Of a DNA stretch of 34,665 bases, positions 4,236 through 17,645 are shown in pieces. The number at the start of each line of letters is the position of its first letter. Position 1 is the stretch's first letter. The DNA lies in the IMG/VR virus record IMGVR_UViG_2698536302_000011, positions 1 to 34,665 of that record, one strand, 5' to 3'. The notes beneath the pieces were generated by a model. That model ran no database searches and had not been told where the DNA came from. It was given only the letters and a program-made list of their open reading frames with translations. The DNA comes from a virus (taxonomy: Duplodnaviria; Heunggongvirae; Uroviricota; Caudoviricetes). The position numbers were made by a program, and so were the translations under genes.

Positions 4236-4801
4236 AATTATCTCCATTTTTACAAATGAACTTTGTTGATGCGGTGCCTGGTGCCTCCAGGTGACGTTAA
4301 CCAGTTAACAATTAACGCCGGATACAGAGAACCCACCCATAACACTGTTTTTGGTTTTAACTGTTCCGCGTGCGCTCAGCCGCATTCACCGCATCACAAA
4401 ACTCACTTTAAAAAGGGCGGCAGACCAGTCACGGAGTAAAACTGATACCGCCAAACGTCACCAGAAAATTGATAACAGAGGGCGTTGCAGCGGGGTTGTC
4501 ACTTAAGCGTATGGTCAACCTGACAACCCGGTGTCCTCAACGGGGAAGGAATAACCCCGCCATACTTACCGCCGCGCCATTTCGCGGAGTGCCACAACCG
4601 GAAGCGCACGGTCGACGAAAATTTAACGACAGGCTATCTATGAACCAGCTACCTCGCCGTGCGCTTTCGCGTTATGGTCTGACTTTTCAGGGAAATATCC
4701 TTTCAGTAAACTGTCAGTGCCGGATGCTCACCCGTGTCCGGCGCACGCACTCCACCTCACCCGTGGAGAACTCCTTAATCACCAACCCTCAGGAGGGTGA
4801 A

Positions 4802-5616: not shown

Positions 5617-5918
5617 ACTGATTCCTCGCGGTGCTGTTTCCCCTTAACGCCGGGGTAGCGGAACAAAAACCTGCTGCATAGTTATTAAAGTTGAACCCTG
5701 CCGTCATGTTCTTACGCCTCGGGCTGGCTACTTAACCCCTGACCACTGCCGGGTAACTCGAAGTATTGCCCTGCATTCTGTGGGGTGGAGTGAGGGAATG
5801 AATGAAGTTTAGAAAAATGAACTTTACAGGTCAATGTTTTTTTATCAAAACATTTTAAGCAGGCAGCTGTTAAGCCATCACCACGATGGCATACAGTTAA
5901 TCAAATAGATGAGGTTGG

Positions 5919-6557
5919 TTAAATATCTTGTTGAATTTTAAAGCATACGCCCAATACGCAAGATAGATCATCCAGCATAATTGAAGGGTAGCGAGGATTC
6001 GTGGGGACTAAAAGAATATCCGGCCCTTCTATCTCCAGTTTACGAATGACAGGTGTTGTGGTCCCTTTGGGTAAGGCAAGGACAATATTTCCTGGTTGTA
6101 CGGTTCGATCGGGATCAACAAAAACTGTTGAACCATTTGGGATGGAAACTCCCCCACCAGATGTTGACATACTGTCACTCTCTAGAACAACTGCAAAGGT
6201 ATTGGCCGGGATTTCTCCGACAAGCTGCACACAAGAGGTTATTGAGGAATTTTTCATATAATCACTCCAGCTTGCTGCCTGCTGAAGTGATAGTAGCGGA
6301 ACCGTTTTTATCGGCGGTAAAGATAGATCAAGCGAATCACCTGTATTTAACTCTCCTCCATTAAGAAGCCAATTTTCGTTTACTTTCAATATCTTTGCCA
6401 GTGAACTTATGTAACGCGAGGACGGCGCTCCTCCACCGTTCATCCATTGACTTACGGAGCCTTTTGATGCGCCAGTGGCATTGACAAGGTCTTTGCCTTT
6501 CAGGTTTAGCGCATGCATACGTTGGGTTATGCGTTCAGATATTGTTTGCTTGCTCAT
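5919..6557 (-). CDS. CI-like prophage repressor (XRE-type HTH + S24/LexA-like autopeptidase)
   Basis: 212 aa; N-terminal HTH ('LKGKDLVNATGASKGSVSQWMNG'); C-terminal S24 fold with a putative Ser/Lys dyad ('VLESDSMS', 'PVIRKLE'); divergent from a Cro-like gene. Confidence 0.85.
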   Translation of the reverse strand: MSKQTISERITQRMHALNLKGKDLVNATGASKGSVSQWMNGGGAPSSRYISSLAKILKVNENWLLNGGELNTGDSLDLSLPPIKTVPLLSLQQAASWSDYMKNSSITSCVQLVGEIPANTFAVVLESDSMSTSGGGVSIPNGSTVFVDPDRTVQPGNIVLALPKGTTTPVIRKLEIEGPDILLVPTNPRYPSIMLDDLSCVLGVCFKIQQDI

Positions 6558-9550: not shown

Positions 9551-10087
9551 GTGGAGATAATAATGGAAATAACTAAAGAACGATTATTGGAAATAGCAAA
9601 TCTTAGTGAAAGGGCATTAAGTGATGGGAGGATTATTTCTCCTGATGCTTATGAATCAGTTACAAGTATAGAAATAATAACGATGGCCAGGATGCTTCTT
9701 GGTTGCCTCAAAAAAGAATATAAAAAAAAGGTGGATAGCAATGCTAATATATATGATATTTTGGACAGTTGGGGGGCTTGGGCTGCAGCTGGAAATAGTT
9801 CTATCAACTGGCAGCAAGTGGCTGATAAATATAAAGATGTAGTACCTCATGGTAAGAAATTACGCCGTCAGTGTGGCAACGATGAAGGTCGTATGATTGA
9901 TACCTGCATGTTGAAGCTTAAACAATATAGAATAGATGACTATGAGTTAATTATCGCTCATTTTGTTATAGGTATATCTTTGCGTACAATAGCACGAAGG
10001 TACAAATGTTCAGATGGAACAATAAGAAAGAATATACAACTTACAATGGGAGTATTGTTAGGATTGTCTTTTTATGTGCAATTATAG
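9551..10087 (+). CDS. Q82-type antitermination protein homolog
   Basis: C-terminal ~110 aa align to the phage 82 / DLP12 QuuD family as recalled ('WGAWAA', 'QCGNDEGRMIDTCMLKLK', 'DDYELIIAHFVIGISLRTIARRYKCSDGTIRKNIQ'); ~70-aa N-terminal extension; a shorter start at M45 (~9683) is possible; lies in low-GC DNA. Confidence 0.5.
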   Translation: MEIIMEITKERLLEIANLSERALSDGRIISPDAYESVTSIEIITMARMLLGCLKKEYKKKVDSNANIYDILDSWGAWAAAGNSSINWQQVADKYKDVVPHGKKLRRQCGNDEGRMIDTCMLKLKQYRIDDYELIIAHFVIGISLRTIARRYKCSDGTIRKNIQLTMGVLLGLSFYVQL

Positions 10088-10092
10088 ATATA

Positions 10093-10572
10093 TCACATGA
10101 GCCTTGTTATGTCTTTTAGACGCGACCAGGTAGTATAAAATTTTTTAAATGTAATAAGCAGGAAAAAAATTCCCACTTGGAGTAATAGTTGGGCATATGT
10201 GTGCTCGTCGGCATCTTTTACTAGTGGGAATTTAAACTTTAGTGTATCAGGGAAAAATAATAAAATGATAAAAATAATACAAACTGATAGTAACCATCCC
10301 ATAGTGGAGTGCATTTCTTCGGTCAGTTTTTTCAAATAACCAGTTTTTCCTATATTTCTAATTAGCGTATTATCTCTAGCTGAAGCAATCAAGGTAAGCG
10401 AACCTAAAACAAAGCCAAATAATATCCCAGAAAATGTAGAAACGGCCGAAGCGATTGGCTGAATTTGTGCAAAATTTAGCTTTGCAGAAAGAGGCCATGC
10501 GATGATACAAAAAACAACAGAGGCTAAATTATAACCATAACTGTACAAAGTTATCAATTTCCCCTTTTTCAT
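10093..10572 (-). CDS. Small four-TM membrane protein; candidate RexB-like effector
   Basis: 159 aa with four hydrophobic helices; immediately downstream of the 304-aa gene (16-bp gap) in low-GC DNA; segment after TM2 'LIASARDNTLIRNIGKTGY' resembles lambda RexB 'LIGSRTRRLAKIREYGY' as I recall it. Confidence 0.45.
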   Translation of the reverse strand: MKKGKLITLYSYGYNLASVVFCIIAWPLSAKLNFAQIQPIASAVSTFSGILFGFVLGSLTLIASARDNTLIRNIGKTGYLKKLTEEMHSTMGWLLSVCIIFIILLFFPDTLKFKFPLVKDADEHTYAQLLLQVGIFFLLITFKKFYTTWSRLKDITRLM

Positions 10573-10587
10573 ACCATCGCTCCAAAA

Positions 10588-11502
10588 TTAATCAACTCTT
10601 TGATTGGCTACTCCAAAGTATGCCTTCAATTCATCATCTTTACTATCTTTTGCAAGAGTTAAGGCGCTCCAAATGCTGCCAACTAATGGATACCTACCTC
10701 CAAGTTCAACATCTGTGTAGTAGACTAATTTGTCTGCTACAAGATCGATAGGATGCTGTACACCGGTCTCAATGTCTTGGGTTTCTAGTTTAAGTTTTTC
10801 AACCTCAAAAGTCTCTAGTGTTTCTTTAAAGGCTCTTTTTAGTTGAGAACCTAGATAGCGAGATTCAGGATCTTCAGAACGACTATCCCCACGTAATGTA
10901 AGATTTACTTTGGCAGAATTAGTACCATTTAGAGTGGCTATCAATGCATTGTTGAAGTTATGTTCAACATCCTCATATAGTTGCACATTCTTTGGCCGAG
11001 CGATACCGATTTCTAGAGTTTTGATTCGAACTTCATTACGCATCAACCACTTTAAACTACTGGTCTGAATGATGGGATTAACAGTTGTATTTTGTGAACT
11101 GTTGGAAAGATATTTACTTAATAGCAACCAGCCATAACAGAGTCTGTTTCGTTGAATTATTAAAACTGAGTCTTGGGTATAAAAATGAAAATAAGCTTTT
11201 TCTAATAAGTTTTCATTGATTTCAAGTTTAATTTCTCTTTCTTCACCTCCGGCTACAGCAACATGAGGGAGATTATTGGTTCTGTGTTTTCCTATAACTC
11301 CCCTGAAACCATAGTCGGTTCTTTCCATGAAGCGCATTTCAACTAGTTTATTTCCTATTTTACGTACAGTTTTGTCTCGGCCTTCGCTGTATGACTCAAA
11401 AATTTTTGAAAAAACAGCTTCAGGTGAATTAACTCCTGCATTTGTATCAGTGCTTATAGTGTGACATTGATAAAAATCGAAGAAAAAGCGCTTGCTAGCC
11501 AT
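10588..11502 (-). CDS. Soluble ~300-aa protein of unknown family; candidate RexA-like sensor
   Basis: 304 aa, no TM segment; first gene of a two-gene leftward operon with the four-TM protein; size and order mirror rexA-rexB; no primary-sequence match I can assert. Confidence 0.4.
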   Translation of the reverse strand: MASKRFFFDFYQCHTISTDTNAGVNSPEAVFSKIFESYSEGRDKTVRKIGNKLVEMRFMERTDYGFRGVIGKHRTNNLPHVAVAGGEEREIKLEINENLLEKAYFHFYTQDSVLIIQRNRLCYGWLLLSKYLSNSSQNTTVNPIIQTSSLKWLMRNEVRIKTLEIGIARPKNVQLYEDVEHNFNNALIATLNGTNSAKVNLTLRGDSRSEDPESRYLGSQLKRAFKETLETFEVEKLKLETQDIETGVQHPIDLVADKLVYYTDVELGGRYPLVGSIWSALTLAKDSKDDELKAYFGVANQRVD

Positions 11503-11950
11503 TGCAAAAATTTCCTGTAAAAAATAATTACATACTTAAGATACTACAAAGAATAATGCGTACGCAAAATTTTTTGTTGAGTAGAATATGTTCGCGGGGT
11601 ATTTTTCGTTAAGATATAATTACCATGGTAACTTTTGCGTTGGTAATGCATTATGTGGTGGAGAAAAAGAGAGAGTCTTATCTTTAAATTATCGCCAGCC
11701 TATATGACTATATGAGTAGTATTTAGATGGGAAATTGTTGAGTTATTGAAAGGAACCATAACCTTTATGTAAAATTACTGCGGGTGCTTGAGGTTATCTG
11801 TCTCAGGCATGCCACCAAAAGGCAGATAGAGAAAAGCCCCAGTTAACGTTACGCGTCCTGCAAGACGTTTAACATTAATCTGAGGCTCAATCTATGAACG
11901 GCAAATCTAGGTTAGCCTCTTACGTGCCGAAAGGCAAGGAGAAGCAGGCT

Positions 11951-12106
11951 ATGAAGCAGCAAAAGGCGATGTTAATCGCCCTGATCGTCATCTGTTTAAC
12001 CGTCATAGTGACGGCACTGGTAACGAGGAAAGACCTCTGCGAGGTACGAATCCGAACCGGCCAGACGGAGGTCGCTGTCTTCACAGCTTACGAACCTGAG
12101 GAGTAA
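11951..12106 (+). CDS. hok: Hok/Gef-family type I toxin
   Basis: 51 aa 'MKQQKAMLIALIVICLTVIVTALVTRKDLCEVRIRTGQTEVAVFTAYEPEE' aligns to Hok ('...[25 protein letters not shown]'); the track ORF extends in frame upstream to 11894 (possible mok-like leader). Confidence 0.85.
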   Translation: MKQQKAMLIALIVICLTVIVTALVTRKDLCEVRIRTGQTEVAVFTAYEPEE

Positions 12107-12173: not shown

Positions 12174-12201
12174 TAACCCGCTTCGGCGGGTTTTGTTTTT
12201 T
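12174..12201 (+). terminator. Rho-independent terminator after hok
   Basis: CCCGC-TTCG-GCGGG hairpin followed by TTTTGTTTTTT. Confidence 0.6.
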
Positions 12202-13969: not shown

Positions 13970-14520
13970 TCGTAAATATGATATACCCGGAAATTACAGG
14001 CAAAAGCGGCGAGCATTTACGTCTAAAAACGCTGGAAGCCGTCTGGATCCAGGGGAAATTACGGATGTGGGGGCGTTGGTCGTATATAGGTGGTGGCAAA
14101 CCAGGAAATATGTTCAATCAGTTGCTGGCATCCAAAAAACTGACAAAAACCGCAATCAATGAAGCCCTGCGTAGAATCAGGGAGTCAGGGATTGATAAAC
14201 CAGAGCTGGAAGCATTCTTGCGAGAGATGATCGCTGGCAGACAGAAGAGCTGGTTGTCTCACTGTACTGATGCAGAGGCGTTACGCATTGATGGGGTGAT
14301 AAGTAAAGCGCTTGCACGTTATCCTGGATTGATTGATATCCTGCGGCAAAGGTACGAAGGGCGGGGGATGAGTAAACGCAAAATGGCTGAATTGTTGAAT
14401 GAGGTGCACCCGGAATGGTGTTTTAGTACATGCGAAAAGCGAATTGCTAATTGGTTAGCTGTTGCTGAATATGCGCTATACATCCCTATGCGAGAATCGT
14501 TTGCTCAAAAAATGTCTTGA
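13966..14520 (+). CDS. Putative late-gene regulator in the Q position (family uncertain)
   Basis: 184 aa directly after rusA; followed by the same terminator + small-ORF + methyltransferase unit that follows the lambda-Q-type fragment in the paralogous copy; no confident motif match. Confidence 0.35.
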   Translation: MIVNMIYPEITGKSGEHLRLKTLEAVWIQGKLRMWGRWSYIGGGKPGNMFNQLLASKKLTKTAINEALRRIRESGIDKPELEAFLREMIAGRQKSWLSHCTDAEALRIDGVISKALARYPGLIDILRQRYEGRGMSKRKMAELLNEVHPEWCFSTCEKRIANWLAVAEYALYIPMRESFAQKMS

Positions 14521-17395: not shown

Positions 17396-17471
17396 GGCCC
17401 TTTAGCTCAGTGGTGAGAGCGAGCGACTCATAATCGCCAGGTCGCTGGTTCAAATCCAGCAAGGGCCACCA
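17396..17471 (+). tRNA. tRNA with CAU anticodon (Met or lysidine-modified Ile2)
   Basis: Cloverleaf folded by hand: acceptor GGCCCTT/AAGGGCC, D-arm GCTC...GAGC, anticodon loop CTCATAA, T-arm GCTGG-TTCAAAT-CCAGC, encoded CCA. Confidence 0.85.
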
Positions 17472-17478
17472 TCACATA

Positions 17479-17555
17479 CCGCCATTAGCTCATCAGGATA
17501 GAGCGCCAGCCTTCGAAGCTGGTTGCGCGGGGTTCGAGTCCTCGATGGCGGTCCA
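17479..17555 (+). tRNA. tRNA-Arg (anticodon UCG)
   Basis: Acceptor CCGCCAT/ATGGCGG, anticodon loop CTTCGAA, T-loop TTCGAGT, encoded CCA. Confidence 0.85.
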
Positions 17556-17568
17556 TTATCTGTACCCT

Positions 17569-17645
17569 GCGTTGTTAGCTCAGCCGGACAGAGCAATTGC
17601 CTTCTAAGCAATCGGTCACTGGTTCGAATCCAGTACAACGCGCCA
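17569..17645 (+). tRNA. tRNA-Arg (anticodon UCU)
   Basis: Acceptor GCGTTGT/ACAACGC, anticodon loop CTTCTAA, T-loop TTCGAAT, encoded CCA. Confidence 0.85.

What the first reader, a model, noticed from the sequence alone, without database searches (positions are those of the whole stretch)
10093..11502. Candidate two-gene abortive-infection/exclusion module with RexA/RexB-like architecture in a low-GC island
A 304-aa soluble protein of no recognisable family is followed 16 bp downstream on the same strand by a 159-aa protein with four hydrophobic helices. This size, order and topology mirror lambda rexA (279 aa) and rexB (144 aa, four-TM channel). The post-TM2 segment 'LIASARDNTLIRNIGKTGY' resembles RexB 'LIGSRTRRLAKIREYGY' as I recall it, but that recollection is unverified. 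Unlike lambda, the pair is not next to the repressor. It sits in visibly AT-rich DNA (~9.5-11.9 kb) inserted between the replication and nin regions, which is typical of a horizontally acquired defence moron. The 304-aa component may be a novel sensor.
Basis: partly seen in the sequence, partly recalled or inferred. Interest (0 to 1): 0.8.

Follow-up and report, generated by a model that had tools for sequence, protein, structure and literature searches.

The report
Diverged Rex-like phage-exclusion gene pair
An E. coli prophage carries a two-gene cassette, a cytoplasmic protein predicted to fold like lambda RexA and a four-helix membrane protein distantly related to RexB, which is most likely an unrecognised relative of the classic lambda Rex abortive-infection system and suggests a function for Pfam family DUF6731.

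Summary
Two minus-strand genes, 304 aa at 11502..10588 and 159 aa at 10572..10093, lie 15 nt apart in a 35% GC cassette (about 9601-11764) of an E. coli lambdoid prophage.

- **Small protein (B).** It is a predicted N-in/C-in four-helix membrane protein. Its family matches RexB models weakly but consistently.
- **Conservation.** The A-then-B pair is kept in all 8 distant genomes examined and in 3 of 4 far more divergent cases.
- **Context.** It occurs in prophage cargo slots and in a defence island. In Pseudomonas phage AUS531phi it lies directly after the cI repressor gene, as rexAB does in lambda.

The best explanation is a Rex-type sensor plus membrane-effector abortive-infection module. 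It is a new, sequence-diverged member of a known kind. No experiment supports it, and I found no paper linking DUF6731 to Rex.

The parts
10588..11502 (-). Gene A: 304-aa cytoplasmic protein, Pfam DUF6731, predicted RexA-like fold (putative sensor / DNA-binding component)
10093..10572 (-). Gene B: 159-aa four-helix inner-membrane protein, distant RexB relative (putative effector)
   Evidence: ORF. phrog_8552 E 2e-68. PADLOC RexB E 0.0015 for this protein, and 24 of 27 family members hit it, best 5e-6. hhalign against the RexB family gives P 5e-5 with controls. AF2 model has four long helices, pLDDT 78.6. N-in/C-in by the positive-inside rule.
10333..10395 (-). Codons 60-80 of B (TLIASARDNTLIRNIGKTGYL): end of TM2 plus the conserved cytoplasmic TM2-TM3 loop, the segment that aligns with lambda RexB LTFLIGSRTRRLAKIREYGYM
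   Evidence: Most conserved stretch of the family (ASAKDNTLI.N..KTGYL). It aligns to RexB, with G49/G50 and G78-Y79/G78-Y79 conserved in both families. In Sbash gp31, substitutions in the equivalent central cytoplasmic loop abolish defence (PMC6426596).
10573..10587 (-). 15-nt A-B spacer with a GGAG ribosome-binding site, implying one operon
   Evidence: Sequence. Spacers of 1-6 nt or overlaps occur in 8 of 8 orthologous loci. Lambda rexA-rexB is also 15 nt.
11503..11764 (-). Cassette-specific AT-rich region upstream of gene A; the promoter presumably lies here but was not identified
   Evidence: Homology to the empty-site prophage resumes at 11765. Homology to the Klebsiella copy stops at the A start codon, 11503. 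Only weak sigma-70-like matches of 8-9 out of 12.
9601..11764 (.). Low-GC variable cassette (35.4% GC) carrying the Q-family gene, B and A in the slot between the DUF4752 gene and the hok/sok locus
   Evidence: Boundaries from alignment with prophage L002, which carries a different gene in this slot. GC values. Full cassette present in only 19 of 5426 complete E. coli genomes.
9551..10087 (+). Q-family antiterminator gene, convergent with B (5 nt between stop codons); a linked neighbour, not shown to be functionally part of the system
   Evidence: Pfam Phage_antitermQ E 3e-30. The block from the Q 3' part through B to A (9740-11503) is 73% identical in DNA to Klebsiella prophages, where Q overlaps the 3' end of B.

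Best explanation
The pair is a highly diverged Rex-type two-component abortive-infection (phage exclusion) module carried as prophage cargo.

Gene A encodes a cytoplasmic protein with the RexA/RdgC-like fold. By analogy with lambda RexA and its characterised relatives, it would act as a dimeric, non-specific DNA-binding sensor. It would respond to a product or a DNA-protein intermediate of an infecting phage.

Gene B encodes an N-in/C-in four-helix inner-membrane protein related to RexB. When activated by A, probably through its strongly conserved cytoplasmic TM2-TM3 loop, B would oligomerise into a channel or pore. That would depolarise or permeabilise the membrane, lower ATP and arrest growth, so the superinfecting phage could not complete its cycle.

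**Shown here:** the genes, their conservation as a pair, the fold match of A to RexA, the statistical similarity of B to RexB, and the mobile, defence-associated contexts.

**Inferred:** dimerisation, DNA binding, the A-B interaction, channel activity and any anti-phage phenotype.
For: **A component**
- Pfam DUF6731.
- Template-free AF2 model. Lambda RexA 8TWQ is the top hit among 350,542 PDB chains by Foldseek (E 1e-6, prob 1.00, alignment spanning the full length).

**B component**
- 24 of 27 family members hit PADLOC RexB.
- 81 of 150 proteins retrieved by the B-family profile from 1.8 billion representatives hit PADLOC RexB (best 6e-8), and 4 hit Pfam RexB (best 9e-7). No other family comes close.
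- hhalign of the broad B profile against the RexB family gives score 32.2, P 5e-5. Block-permuted controls gave mean 16.5, sd 3.3, max 26.3 (0 of 60 reached the real score). The reversed control gave 14.8.
- The aligned region is TM2 plus the cytoplasmic loop. That loop is functionally essential in Sbash gp31.

**Pairing**
- A then B, same strand, with tight or overlapping junctions in 8 of 8 genomes: Photobacterium, Aeromonas, Pseudoalteromonas (two), a Saprospiraceae MAG, Endozoicomonas, Marinobacterium and Geomonas.
- The same pairing holds for 3 of 4 informative distant B-like proteins.

**Context**
- Between Q and the holin gene in Klebsiella prophages.
- Next to the integrase at a Vibrio prophage end.
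- Beside AAA_15/21+HNH, Mrr/NA-iREase and NERD genes in Endozoicomonas.
- Directly after the S24 CI repressor gene in Pseudomonas phage AUS531phi.
- Patchy distribution: 19 of 5426 E. coli genomes, and low GC.
Against: - No sequence-level similarity of A to RexA by any test: BLASTP, profile against PDB sequences, 0 of 37 members hitting Pfam or PADLOC RexA at E <= 1, and hhalign P 0.07-0.7.
- The window's own B protein does not reach any curated threshold: PADLOC RexB E 0.0015, and no Pfam RexB hit at E <= 1.
- The narrow-profile hhalign was weak (P 0.039).
- The B fold search in BFVD gave no hit at E <= 1e-3, and lambda RexB was not in the top 50.
- No promoter or terminator was identified.
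- The pair is not in the immunity region of this prophage, so expression in the lysogen is unproven.
- No experimental data exist for any DUF6731 protein that I could find.
Confidence: 0.65

Rival explanations
1. Rex-like by descent but with Butters-type inverted logic. The cytoplasmic A protein would be the toxic or antiviral effector. The membrane protein B would only sequester or restrain it until infection releases it.
For: Mycobacteriophage Butters gp30/gp31 is reported to work this way (summarised in PMC12894663). The homology evidence does not distinguish between the two logics.
Against: Four of the five described Rex-like systems use the membrane protein as effector. The most conserved part of B is a cytoplasmic loop next to TM2 that is shared with RexB. 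In Sbash gp31, a B-effector system, this loop is essential.
Confidence: 0.1
2. A prophage life-cycle module rather than a defence system. The RexA-fold protein would bind DNA to bias the lysis-lysogeny switch, as lambda RexA can do independently of RexB. B would play an accessory membrane role. The linkage to the Q antiterminator gene would reflect regulation of late transcription.
For: Lambda RexA modulates the bistable switch independently of RexB (PMC11077077 abstract). The Q(3')-B-A block moves as a unit between E. coli and Klebsiella prophages, with B and Q convergent or overlapping.
Against: The same pair occurs outside prophage regulatory regions: in an Endozoicomonas island of nuclease and ATPase defence-type genes, and next to an integrase in Vibrio with no Q gene. 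The strict A+B coupling argues that the membrane partner is integral to the function.
Confidence: 0.1
3. The resemblance to Rex is superficial. A would be a generic RdgC/CENP-N-like alpha/beta DNA-binding protein, and B an unrelated small membrane protein. Together they could form, for example, a superinfection-exclusion (injection-blocking) or addiction/toxin-antitoxin-like cassette.
For: No sequence signal links A to RexA. The A model has moderate confidence and a low global TM-score. Small helical membrane proteins give low-information matches. A hok/sok addiction locus is immediately adjacent.
Confidence: 0.12

Closest known systems
Bacteriophage lambda RexA/RexB exclusion system (Pfam PF15969 / PF15968; PDB 8TWQ)
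   Same: - Two genes in the order A then B on one strand, with a 15-nt spacer in both.
- Similar sizes: 304/159 aa against 279/144 aa.
- A has the RexA fold as its best PDB match.
- B is a four-helix membrane protein. It shares the TM2 and cytoplasmic-loop signature G...T...GY with RexB.
- Both are prophage-borne.
   Different: - A has no detectable sequence similarity to RexA, and the two are separate Pfam families (DUF6731 against RexA).
- B is below the curated RexB thresholds.
- In this prophage the pair is not next to cI. It lies antisense in a cargo slot beside a Q-family gene.
- The family also occurs in non-phage islands and outside Enterobacteria.
- No phenotype is known.
Pseudomonas putida prophage P1 RexABpp (PP_5643/PP_5644; Sci Rep 2026, PMC12894663)
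   Same: - That system was shown experimentally to need both genes for defence and to damage membranes when A is over-expressed.
- It is the best functional precedent for this inference.
   Different: - I could not retrieve the PP_5643/5644 sequences, so membership of the same family is untested.
- The termini deduced from published primers (MHRTATFV... and ...VYNKQSRLMV) do not resemble the DUF6731 consensus termini.
- HHpred linked PP_5643 to RexA at the sequence level. My shallower profiles could not do this for DUF6731.
Actinobacteriophage Rex-like systems: Sbash gp30/gp31, CarolAnn gp44/gp43, Butters gp30/gp31
   Same: - Each has a cytoplasmic RexA-like protein plus a four-TM partner, and each is prophage-expressed heterotypic defence.
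- Sbash gp31 has a conserved central cytoplasmic loop essential for defence, matching the position of the conserved loop in B.
- An uncharacterised 165-aa Sbash protein ranked 5th in the B fold search (TM 0.54, E 0.39).
   Different: - They come from a different host phylum, with no sequence similarity tested here.
- The identity of the Sbash fold hit with gp31 is not verified.
- Butters uses inverted logic, with A as the effector.
RdgC and the CENP-N / CENP-L / Chl4 / Iml3 fold
   Different: The scores are much lower than for RexA. These proteins have no membrane partner and no phage-defence role.
PADLOC candidate system PDC-M18 (component B)
   Same: 5 of 27 B-family members weakly match PDC-M18B (best E 0.006).
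   Different: The matches are far weaker and rarer than those to RexB. A matches no PDC-M18 component.

Membership tests
Lambda Rex system, strict sense (Pfam RexA PF15969 + RexB PF15968) | Large subunit matches the RexA sequence profile | tested here: not met
   No RexA hit for the window protein, or for any of 37 family members, in Pfam or PADLOC at E <= 1. BLASTP E > 5. Profile against PDB sequences found no RexA. hhalign P 0.07-0.7.
Lambda Rex system, strict sense (Pfam RexA PF15969 + RexB PF15968) | Small subunit matches the RexB sequence profile above the curated threshold | tested here: not met
   No Pfam RexB hit at E <= 1 for the window protein. The PADLOC RexB hit is only E 0.0015, 16.9 bits. 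True RexB homologues score E 1e-26 to 1e-82.
Rex-type systems, broad sense (RexA-fold protein + RexB-like four-TM partner) | Large subunit adopts the RexA two-domain fold | tested here: met
   [not shown]
Rex-type systems, broad sense (RexA-fold protein + RexB-like four-TM partner) | Small subunit is a four-TM inner-membrane protein with cytoplasmic termini and a conserved central cytoplasmic loop | tested here: met
   Hydropathy and the AF2 model show four helices. K+R distribution is 13 inside against 4 outside. The loop ASAKDNTLI.N..KTGYL is the most conserved segment.
Rex-type systems, broad sense (RexA-fold protein + RexB-like four-TM partner) | Small subunit is homologous to RexB | tested here: inconclusive
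   Consistent but sub-threshold. 24 of 27 and 81 of 150 relatives hit PADLOC RexB (best 6e-8), and 4 of 150 hit Pfam RexB. hhalign P 5e-5, prob 67%, above all 60 permuted controls. The narrow-profile hhalign gave P 0.039, and the fold search was uninformative.
Rex-type systems, broad sense (RexA-fold protein + RexB-like four-TM partner) | Gene order A then B in one tightly spaced operon, conserved across relatives | tested here: met
   15-nt spacer in the window. 8 of 8 distant loci. Klebsiella, Endozoicomonas and Vibrio loci. 3 of 4 divergent cases. Co-transcription itself was not tested.
Rex-type systems, broad sense (RexA-fold protein + RexB-like four-TM partner) | Located in the immunity region downstream of the repressor and expressed in the lysogen | tested here: not met
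   In the window the pair is about 4 kb from the LexA/CI-like gene, on the opposite side of the replication genes. The feature is met in the relative from Pseudomonas phage AUS531phi, where the order is CI, then A, then B. It is not universal among accepted Rex-like systems. Expression was not testable.
Rex-type systems, broad sense (RexA-fold protein + RexB-like four-TM partner) | Both genes required for exclusion of superinfecting phages; A over-expression triggers B-dependent membrane depolarisation or growth arrest | not testable with these tools
   This needs plaque assays, deletion mutants and membrane-potential assays, as done for RexABpp.
Rex-type systems, broad sense (RexA-fold protein + RexB-like four-TM partner) | A is a homodimer that binds DNA non-specifically | not tested
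It needs SEC-MALS and EMSA, as in PMC11077077.
Pfam DUF6731 (PF20505) | Full-length match above the Pfam gathering score | tested here: met
   47.6 bits against a cut-off of 27, E 2e-12, residues 1-268 on profile positions 1-269 of 295. 37 of 37 family members match. RefSeq uses the same name.

The most novel reading that the evidence does not exclude
DUF6731 proteins and their RexB-like partners form a large branch of the Rex superfamily that has not been recognised as such. The branch spans Gammaproteobacteria, Bacteroidota and Desulfobacterota.

- The B-family profile finds 153 clusters (at 50% identity) of B-like proteins.
- PADLOC-DB v2.0.0 (2023) has no model matching the A component.
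- The G...T...(K/R)xxG(Y/H) signature in TM2 and the cytoplasmic loop is shared with lambda RexB. It would be the ancestral docking or gating site for the A partner.

This would give a comparative handle on the still-unresolved RexA-to-RexB activation step.

A more speculative extension concerns the fixed convergent linkage to the Q antiterminator gene. Late transcription of the prophage might run antisense through the pair, switching the suicide module off during the prophage's own lytic growth.
Probability: 0.45. Interest if true: 0.65.

Novelty: new member of a known kind. Interest (0 to 1): 0.55.

Why it matters
Lambda Rex is the oldest known abortive-infection system, yet how RexA senses infection and activates RexB remains unresolved. 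A 2026 paper (PMC12894663) states that only five Rex-like systems have been described.

Assigning DUF6731 and its membrane partner to this class would have three consequences:
- It would give a functional hypothesis for a Pfam family of unknown function and for two PHROG families.
- It would extend Rex-type systems to many Gram-negative lineages and to non-prophage defence islands.
- It would point to a short cytoplasmic-loop signature, conserved between very distant RexB-like proteins, as a concrete target for mutagenesis.

It also flags a gap in defence-system annotation. PADLOC-DB v2.0.0 (2023) does not recognise the A component at all.

For this E. coli prophage in particular, which is found in human stool isolates, it predicts a phage-resistance trait. 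That is relevant to phage susceptibility typing.

Tried and rejected
- **Pairwise BLASTP** of both proteins against lambda RexA and RexB: nothing.
- **A-family profiles against all PDB sequences:** no RexA hit.
- **hhalign of A-family profiles against a four-sequence RexA alignment:** three attempts, including a profile broadened with the Pseudomonas-type DUF6731 proteins, gave P 0.07-0.7. Both profiles are shallow (Neff 2-3.5) and had no secondary-structure input, so this is a weak negative.
- **Narrow B against RexB hhalign:** P 0.039. It became significant only after broadening the B profile.
- **B fold search:** afdb50 was unavailable. BFVD gave no hit at E <= 1e-3, and lambda RexB was absent from the top 50.
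- **Recovering P. putida PP_5643/5644:** I used primer-derived exact sequences to test whether RexApp is a DUF6731 protein.
- **Promoter and terminator scans:** no convincing signal for the pair. The 11/12 promoter-like match at 10557-10528 lies inside the B coding region. The total number of matches (11) is close to the shuffle expectation of 8.9.
- **Literature:** no paper mentions DUF6731, WP_000157319 or WP_000715488.
- **Rejected readings:**
  - Housekeeping function, given the patchy distribution (19 of 5426 genomes), low GC and mobile contexts.
  - Holin, given the opposite strand to the lysis genes and the strict pairing with a 300-aa cytoplasmic protein.
  - PDC-M18 membership, since only sporadic weak B hits were found and no A hit.
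Full report
**1. The observation**

The window is a lambdoid prophage of E. coli. It starts at the integrase gene next to potC/potD in near-identical genomes.

The two ORFs are present. A is 304 aa at 11502..10588 and B is 159 aa at 10572..10093. Both lie on the minus strand, opposite to the surrounding early and late genes. They are separated by 15 nt, not 16. Lambda rexA-rexB has the same 15-nt spacing. Both have Shine-Dalgarno sequences.

Comparison with a related prophage that has another gene in this slot places the cassette boundaries at about 9601 and 11764. The cassette is 35.4% GC against 51.1% elsewhere. It sits after the replication-region genes (YdaT, DUF977, DUF4406, DUF4752). On the other side it precedes a hok/sok locus (Rfam sok at 11782-11956), then DUF968, RusA and a DUF1133 antiterminator-like gene.

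It is convergent with B, with 5 nt between the stop codons. The full cassette is rare, occurring in 19 of 5426 complete E. coli genomes.

**2. The large protein (A)**

A is not family-less. It matches Pfam DUF6731 above threshold (E 2e-12) and phrog_7651. RefSeq calls it 'DUF6731 family protein'. It matches nothing in PADLOC-DB 2.0.0 or NCBIfam.

Forty-two 90%-identity clusters of homologues were found, from Klebsiella, Rahnella, Photobacterium, Vibrio, Shewanella, Endozoicomonas and Marinobacterium among others. They share 42 invariant columns.

An AF2 model built on this alignment without templates has moderate confidence: pLDDT 69.6 and pTM 0.62. It is good for residues 1-150 and 260-300 and poor for 150-260.

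- **Foldseek** against 350,542 PDB chains ranks lambda RexA (8TWQ chains B and A) first and second, at E 1e-6 and 6e-6 and probability 1.00. The alignments span the full length. The next hit is at E 3e-3.

The RexA structure paper reports structural homology between RexA and RdgC (PMC11077077). It describes RexA as a split globular domain (1-139 and 248-279) interrupted by an alpha/beta dimerisation domain (143-234). The model's order of elements fits this. A beta-rich N-terminal part runs to about residue 145. A strand/helix domain occupies about 147-250. A final strand and two C-terminal helices follow.

The low global TM-score (0.37-0.42) may reflect a different hinge angle and the poorly modelled inserted domain.

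At the sequence level I found no link to RexA by any route. The RexA relationship therefore rests on predicted structure alone.

**3. The small protein (B)**

B matches phrog_8552 and has no Pfam family. Hydropathy, the AF2 model (pLDDT 78.6, four long helices) and the positive-inside rule indicate a four-TM protein. The termini and the TM2-TM3 loop would be cytoplasmic.

The family (29 clusters) is most conserved from TM2 through that loop: QIQPIASA.STF.GILFGFV.AS.TL.ASAKDNTLI.N..KTGYL.

Statistical tests of the B-RexB relationship:
- The window protein hits PADLOC RexB at E 0.0015. 24 of 27 family members hit it, best 5e-6.
- A profile of the family searched against 1.84 billion representatives retrieved 153 proteins at E <= 1e-3, nearly all 135-160 aa.
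- Of the best 150, 81 hit PADLOC RexB at E <= 0.01 (best 6e-8) and 4 hit Pfam RexB (best 9e-7). No other family is recurrent.
- hhalign of the narrow family against a 22-sequence RexB alignment is weak (P 0.039).
- After broadening, hhalign gives score 32.2, P 5e-5 and probability 67% over 60 columns, covering TM1-TM2 and the loop.
- Controls that preserve composition and helix-sized blocks give mean 16.5, sd 3.3 and max 26.3 (0 of 60 reach the real score). The reversed alignment gives 14.8.
- In the alignment, the residues conserved in both families coincide: G49/G50, T60/T61 and G78-Y79/G78-Y79.

The fold search in BFVD was uninformative. I conclude that distant homology to RexB is probable but not proven.

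The Sbash study found that the central cytoplasmic loop of the RexB-like gp31 carries the invariant residues. Substitutions there (R70A, D73A) abolish defence (PMC6426596). This is the equivalent region.

**4. The pair and its contexts**

In all 8 species-representative genomes that encode an A homologue, a B-family gene follows on the same strand. The genomes are Photobacterium, Aeromonas, two Pseudoalteromonas, a Saprospiraceae MAG, Endozoicomonas, Marinobacterium and Geomonas, at 42-54% identity. The junction is 1-6 nt or an overlap.

Five much more divergent B-like proteins were sampled:
- Three are immediately downstream of a Pfam DUF6731 gene.
- One follows an unassigned 343-aa protein.
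- One contig was too short to tell.

Contexts:
- **Klebsiella prophages:** the pair lies between Q and the holin gene, convergent with Q. The DNA block from the Q 3' part through B to A is 73% identical to window 9740-11503.
- **Endozoicomonas:** an island with AAA_15/AAA_21+HNH, Mrr_cat/NA-iREase1 and NERD genes.
- **Vibrio europaeus:** beside the integrase at a prophage end.
- **Pseudomonas phage AUS531phi:** this is the only relative in 50,697 phage records. Here a DUF6731 gene (E 9e-13) and a B-family gene (E 2e-32 against the broad profile) lie directly downstream of the S24 CI repressor gene on the same strand. This is the lambda cI-rexA-rexB layout.

**5. Mechanism**

The most likely reading (confidence about 0.65) is a Rex-type abortive-infection module. 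A would be the cytoplasmic sensor with a RexA fold, presumably dimeric and DNA-binding. B would be the membrane effector, triggered through its cytoplasmic loop. Activation would cause depolarisation or permeabilisation and growth arrest, blocking the invading phage.

All mechanistic steps for the present pair are inferred. Rival readings:
- Butters-type inverted logic.
- A life-cycle regulator connected with Q.
- A merely superficial resemblance.

**6. Comparison and novelty**

The pair fails the strict sequence definitions of Pfam RexA and RexB. It meets the broader architectural definition used for the accepted Rex-like systems. The literature I could search describes five such systems. It contains no mention of DUF6731 or of these accessions.

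I could not obtain PP_5643/5644 to test whether RexABpp is itself a DUF6731 pair. The primer-derived termini do not look alike.

One source names a member of the A family 'DUF4747 domain-containing'. DUF4747 is the motif reported to be shared by Sbash gp30 and lambda RexA. However, the current Pfam gave no DUF4747 hit for any member, so this is only a lead.

I classify the finding as a new, sequence-diverged member of a known kind. It is of moderate interest because it would annotate a DUF family, widen the Rex superfamily and highlight a conserved loop signature for testing.

**7. Limits**

- The A model has moderate confidence.
- Profiles were shallow and lacked secondary-structure terms.
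- No multimer modelling was done.
- No promoter was found.
- There is no expression or phenotype evidence.

Noticed in passing
window 9551-10087 (+), with 9740-11503 as the shared block: A Q-family antiterminator gene lies inside the same low-GC cassette, convergent with gene B with 5 nt between the stop codons. The Q 3' part, B and A are shared as one block at 73% DNA identity with Klebsiella prophages, where Q overlaps the 3' end of B by 8 bp. The prophage also has a second antiterminator-like gene (DUF1133, about 13978-14520). Late transcription might run antisense through the pair.
   Followed up: partly
window 11782-12106 (+); terminator-like hairpin at 12175-12192: A hok/sok type I toxin-antitoxin locus (Rfam sok 108.7 bits; hokD-like ORF ending at 12106) starts right at the right boundary of the cassette. 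This slot therefore stacks two membrane-targeting modules.
   Followed up: partly
window 4415-4466 (-): A DicF antisense sRNA gene (Rfam 74.2 bits) lies in the early-left region. The near-identical reference prophage has dicB annotated in the corresponding region.
   Followed up: no
window 17396-17645 (+): A cluster of three tRNA genes, Met(CAT), Arg(TCG) and Arg(TCT), lies upstream of the lysis region. The closest annotated relative (CP025856) has Ile and Arg tRNAs here, so this part of the prophage is mosaic.
   Followed up: no
L022 (Pseudomonas phage AUS531phi, MN585195) 5659-6144: The B-family gene is annotated as 118 aa from a GTG at 5788 and lacks TM1. A longer ORF of up to 161 aa overlaps the end of the DUF6731 gene and restores a first hydrophobic helix. 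The deposited start is probably too far downstream.
   Followed up: partly
L024 1938-2969 (MAG contig JADFZH010000216): One distant RexB-like protein (P0239) is preceded by a 343-aa protein with no Pfam hit, rather than a DUF6731 protein, downstream of HTH_3 and outer-membrane-protein genes. This may be yet another A-type partner family.
   Followed up: no
window 10557-10528 (-): A near-consensus sigma-70 match (TTGATA, 18-nt spacer, TATAAT; 11 of 12) lies inside the first 45 nt of the B coding region. It is probably chance in AT-rich DNA, since 11 sites were found against 8.9 expected. It is loosely reminiscent of lambda pLIT inside rexA (from my own knowledge), but here it is downstream of the B start codon.
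   Followed up: no
protein P0013 (Photobacterium sanctipauli): UniRef names this DUF6731-family member 'DUF4747 domain-containing protein'. DUF4747 is the motif the Sbash paper reports as shared by Sbash gp30 and lambda RexA. The current Pfam scan gave no DUF4747 hit for any family member.
   Followed up: partly
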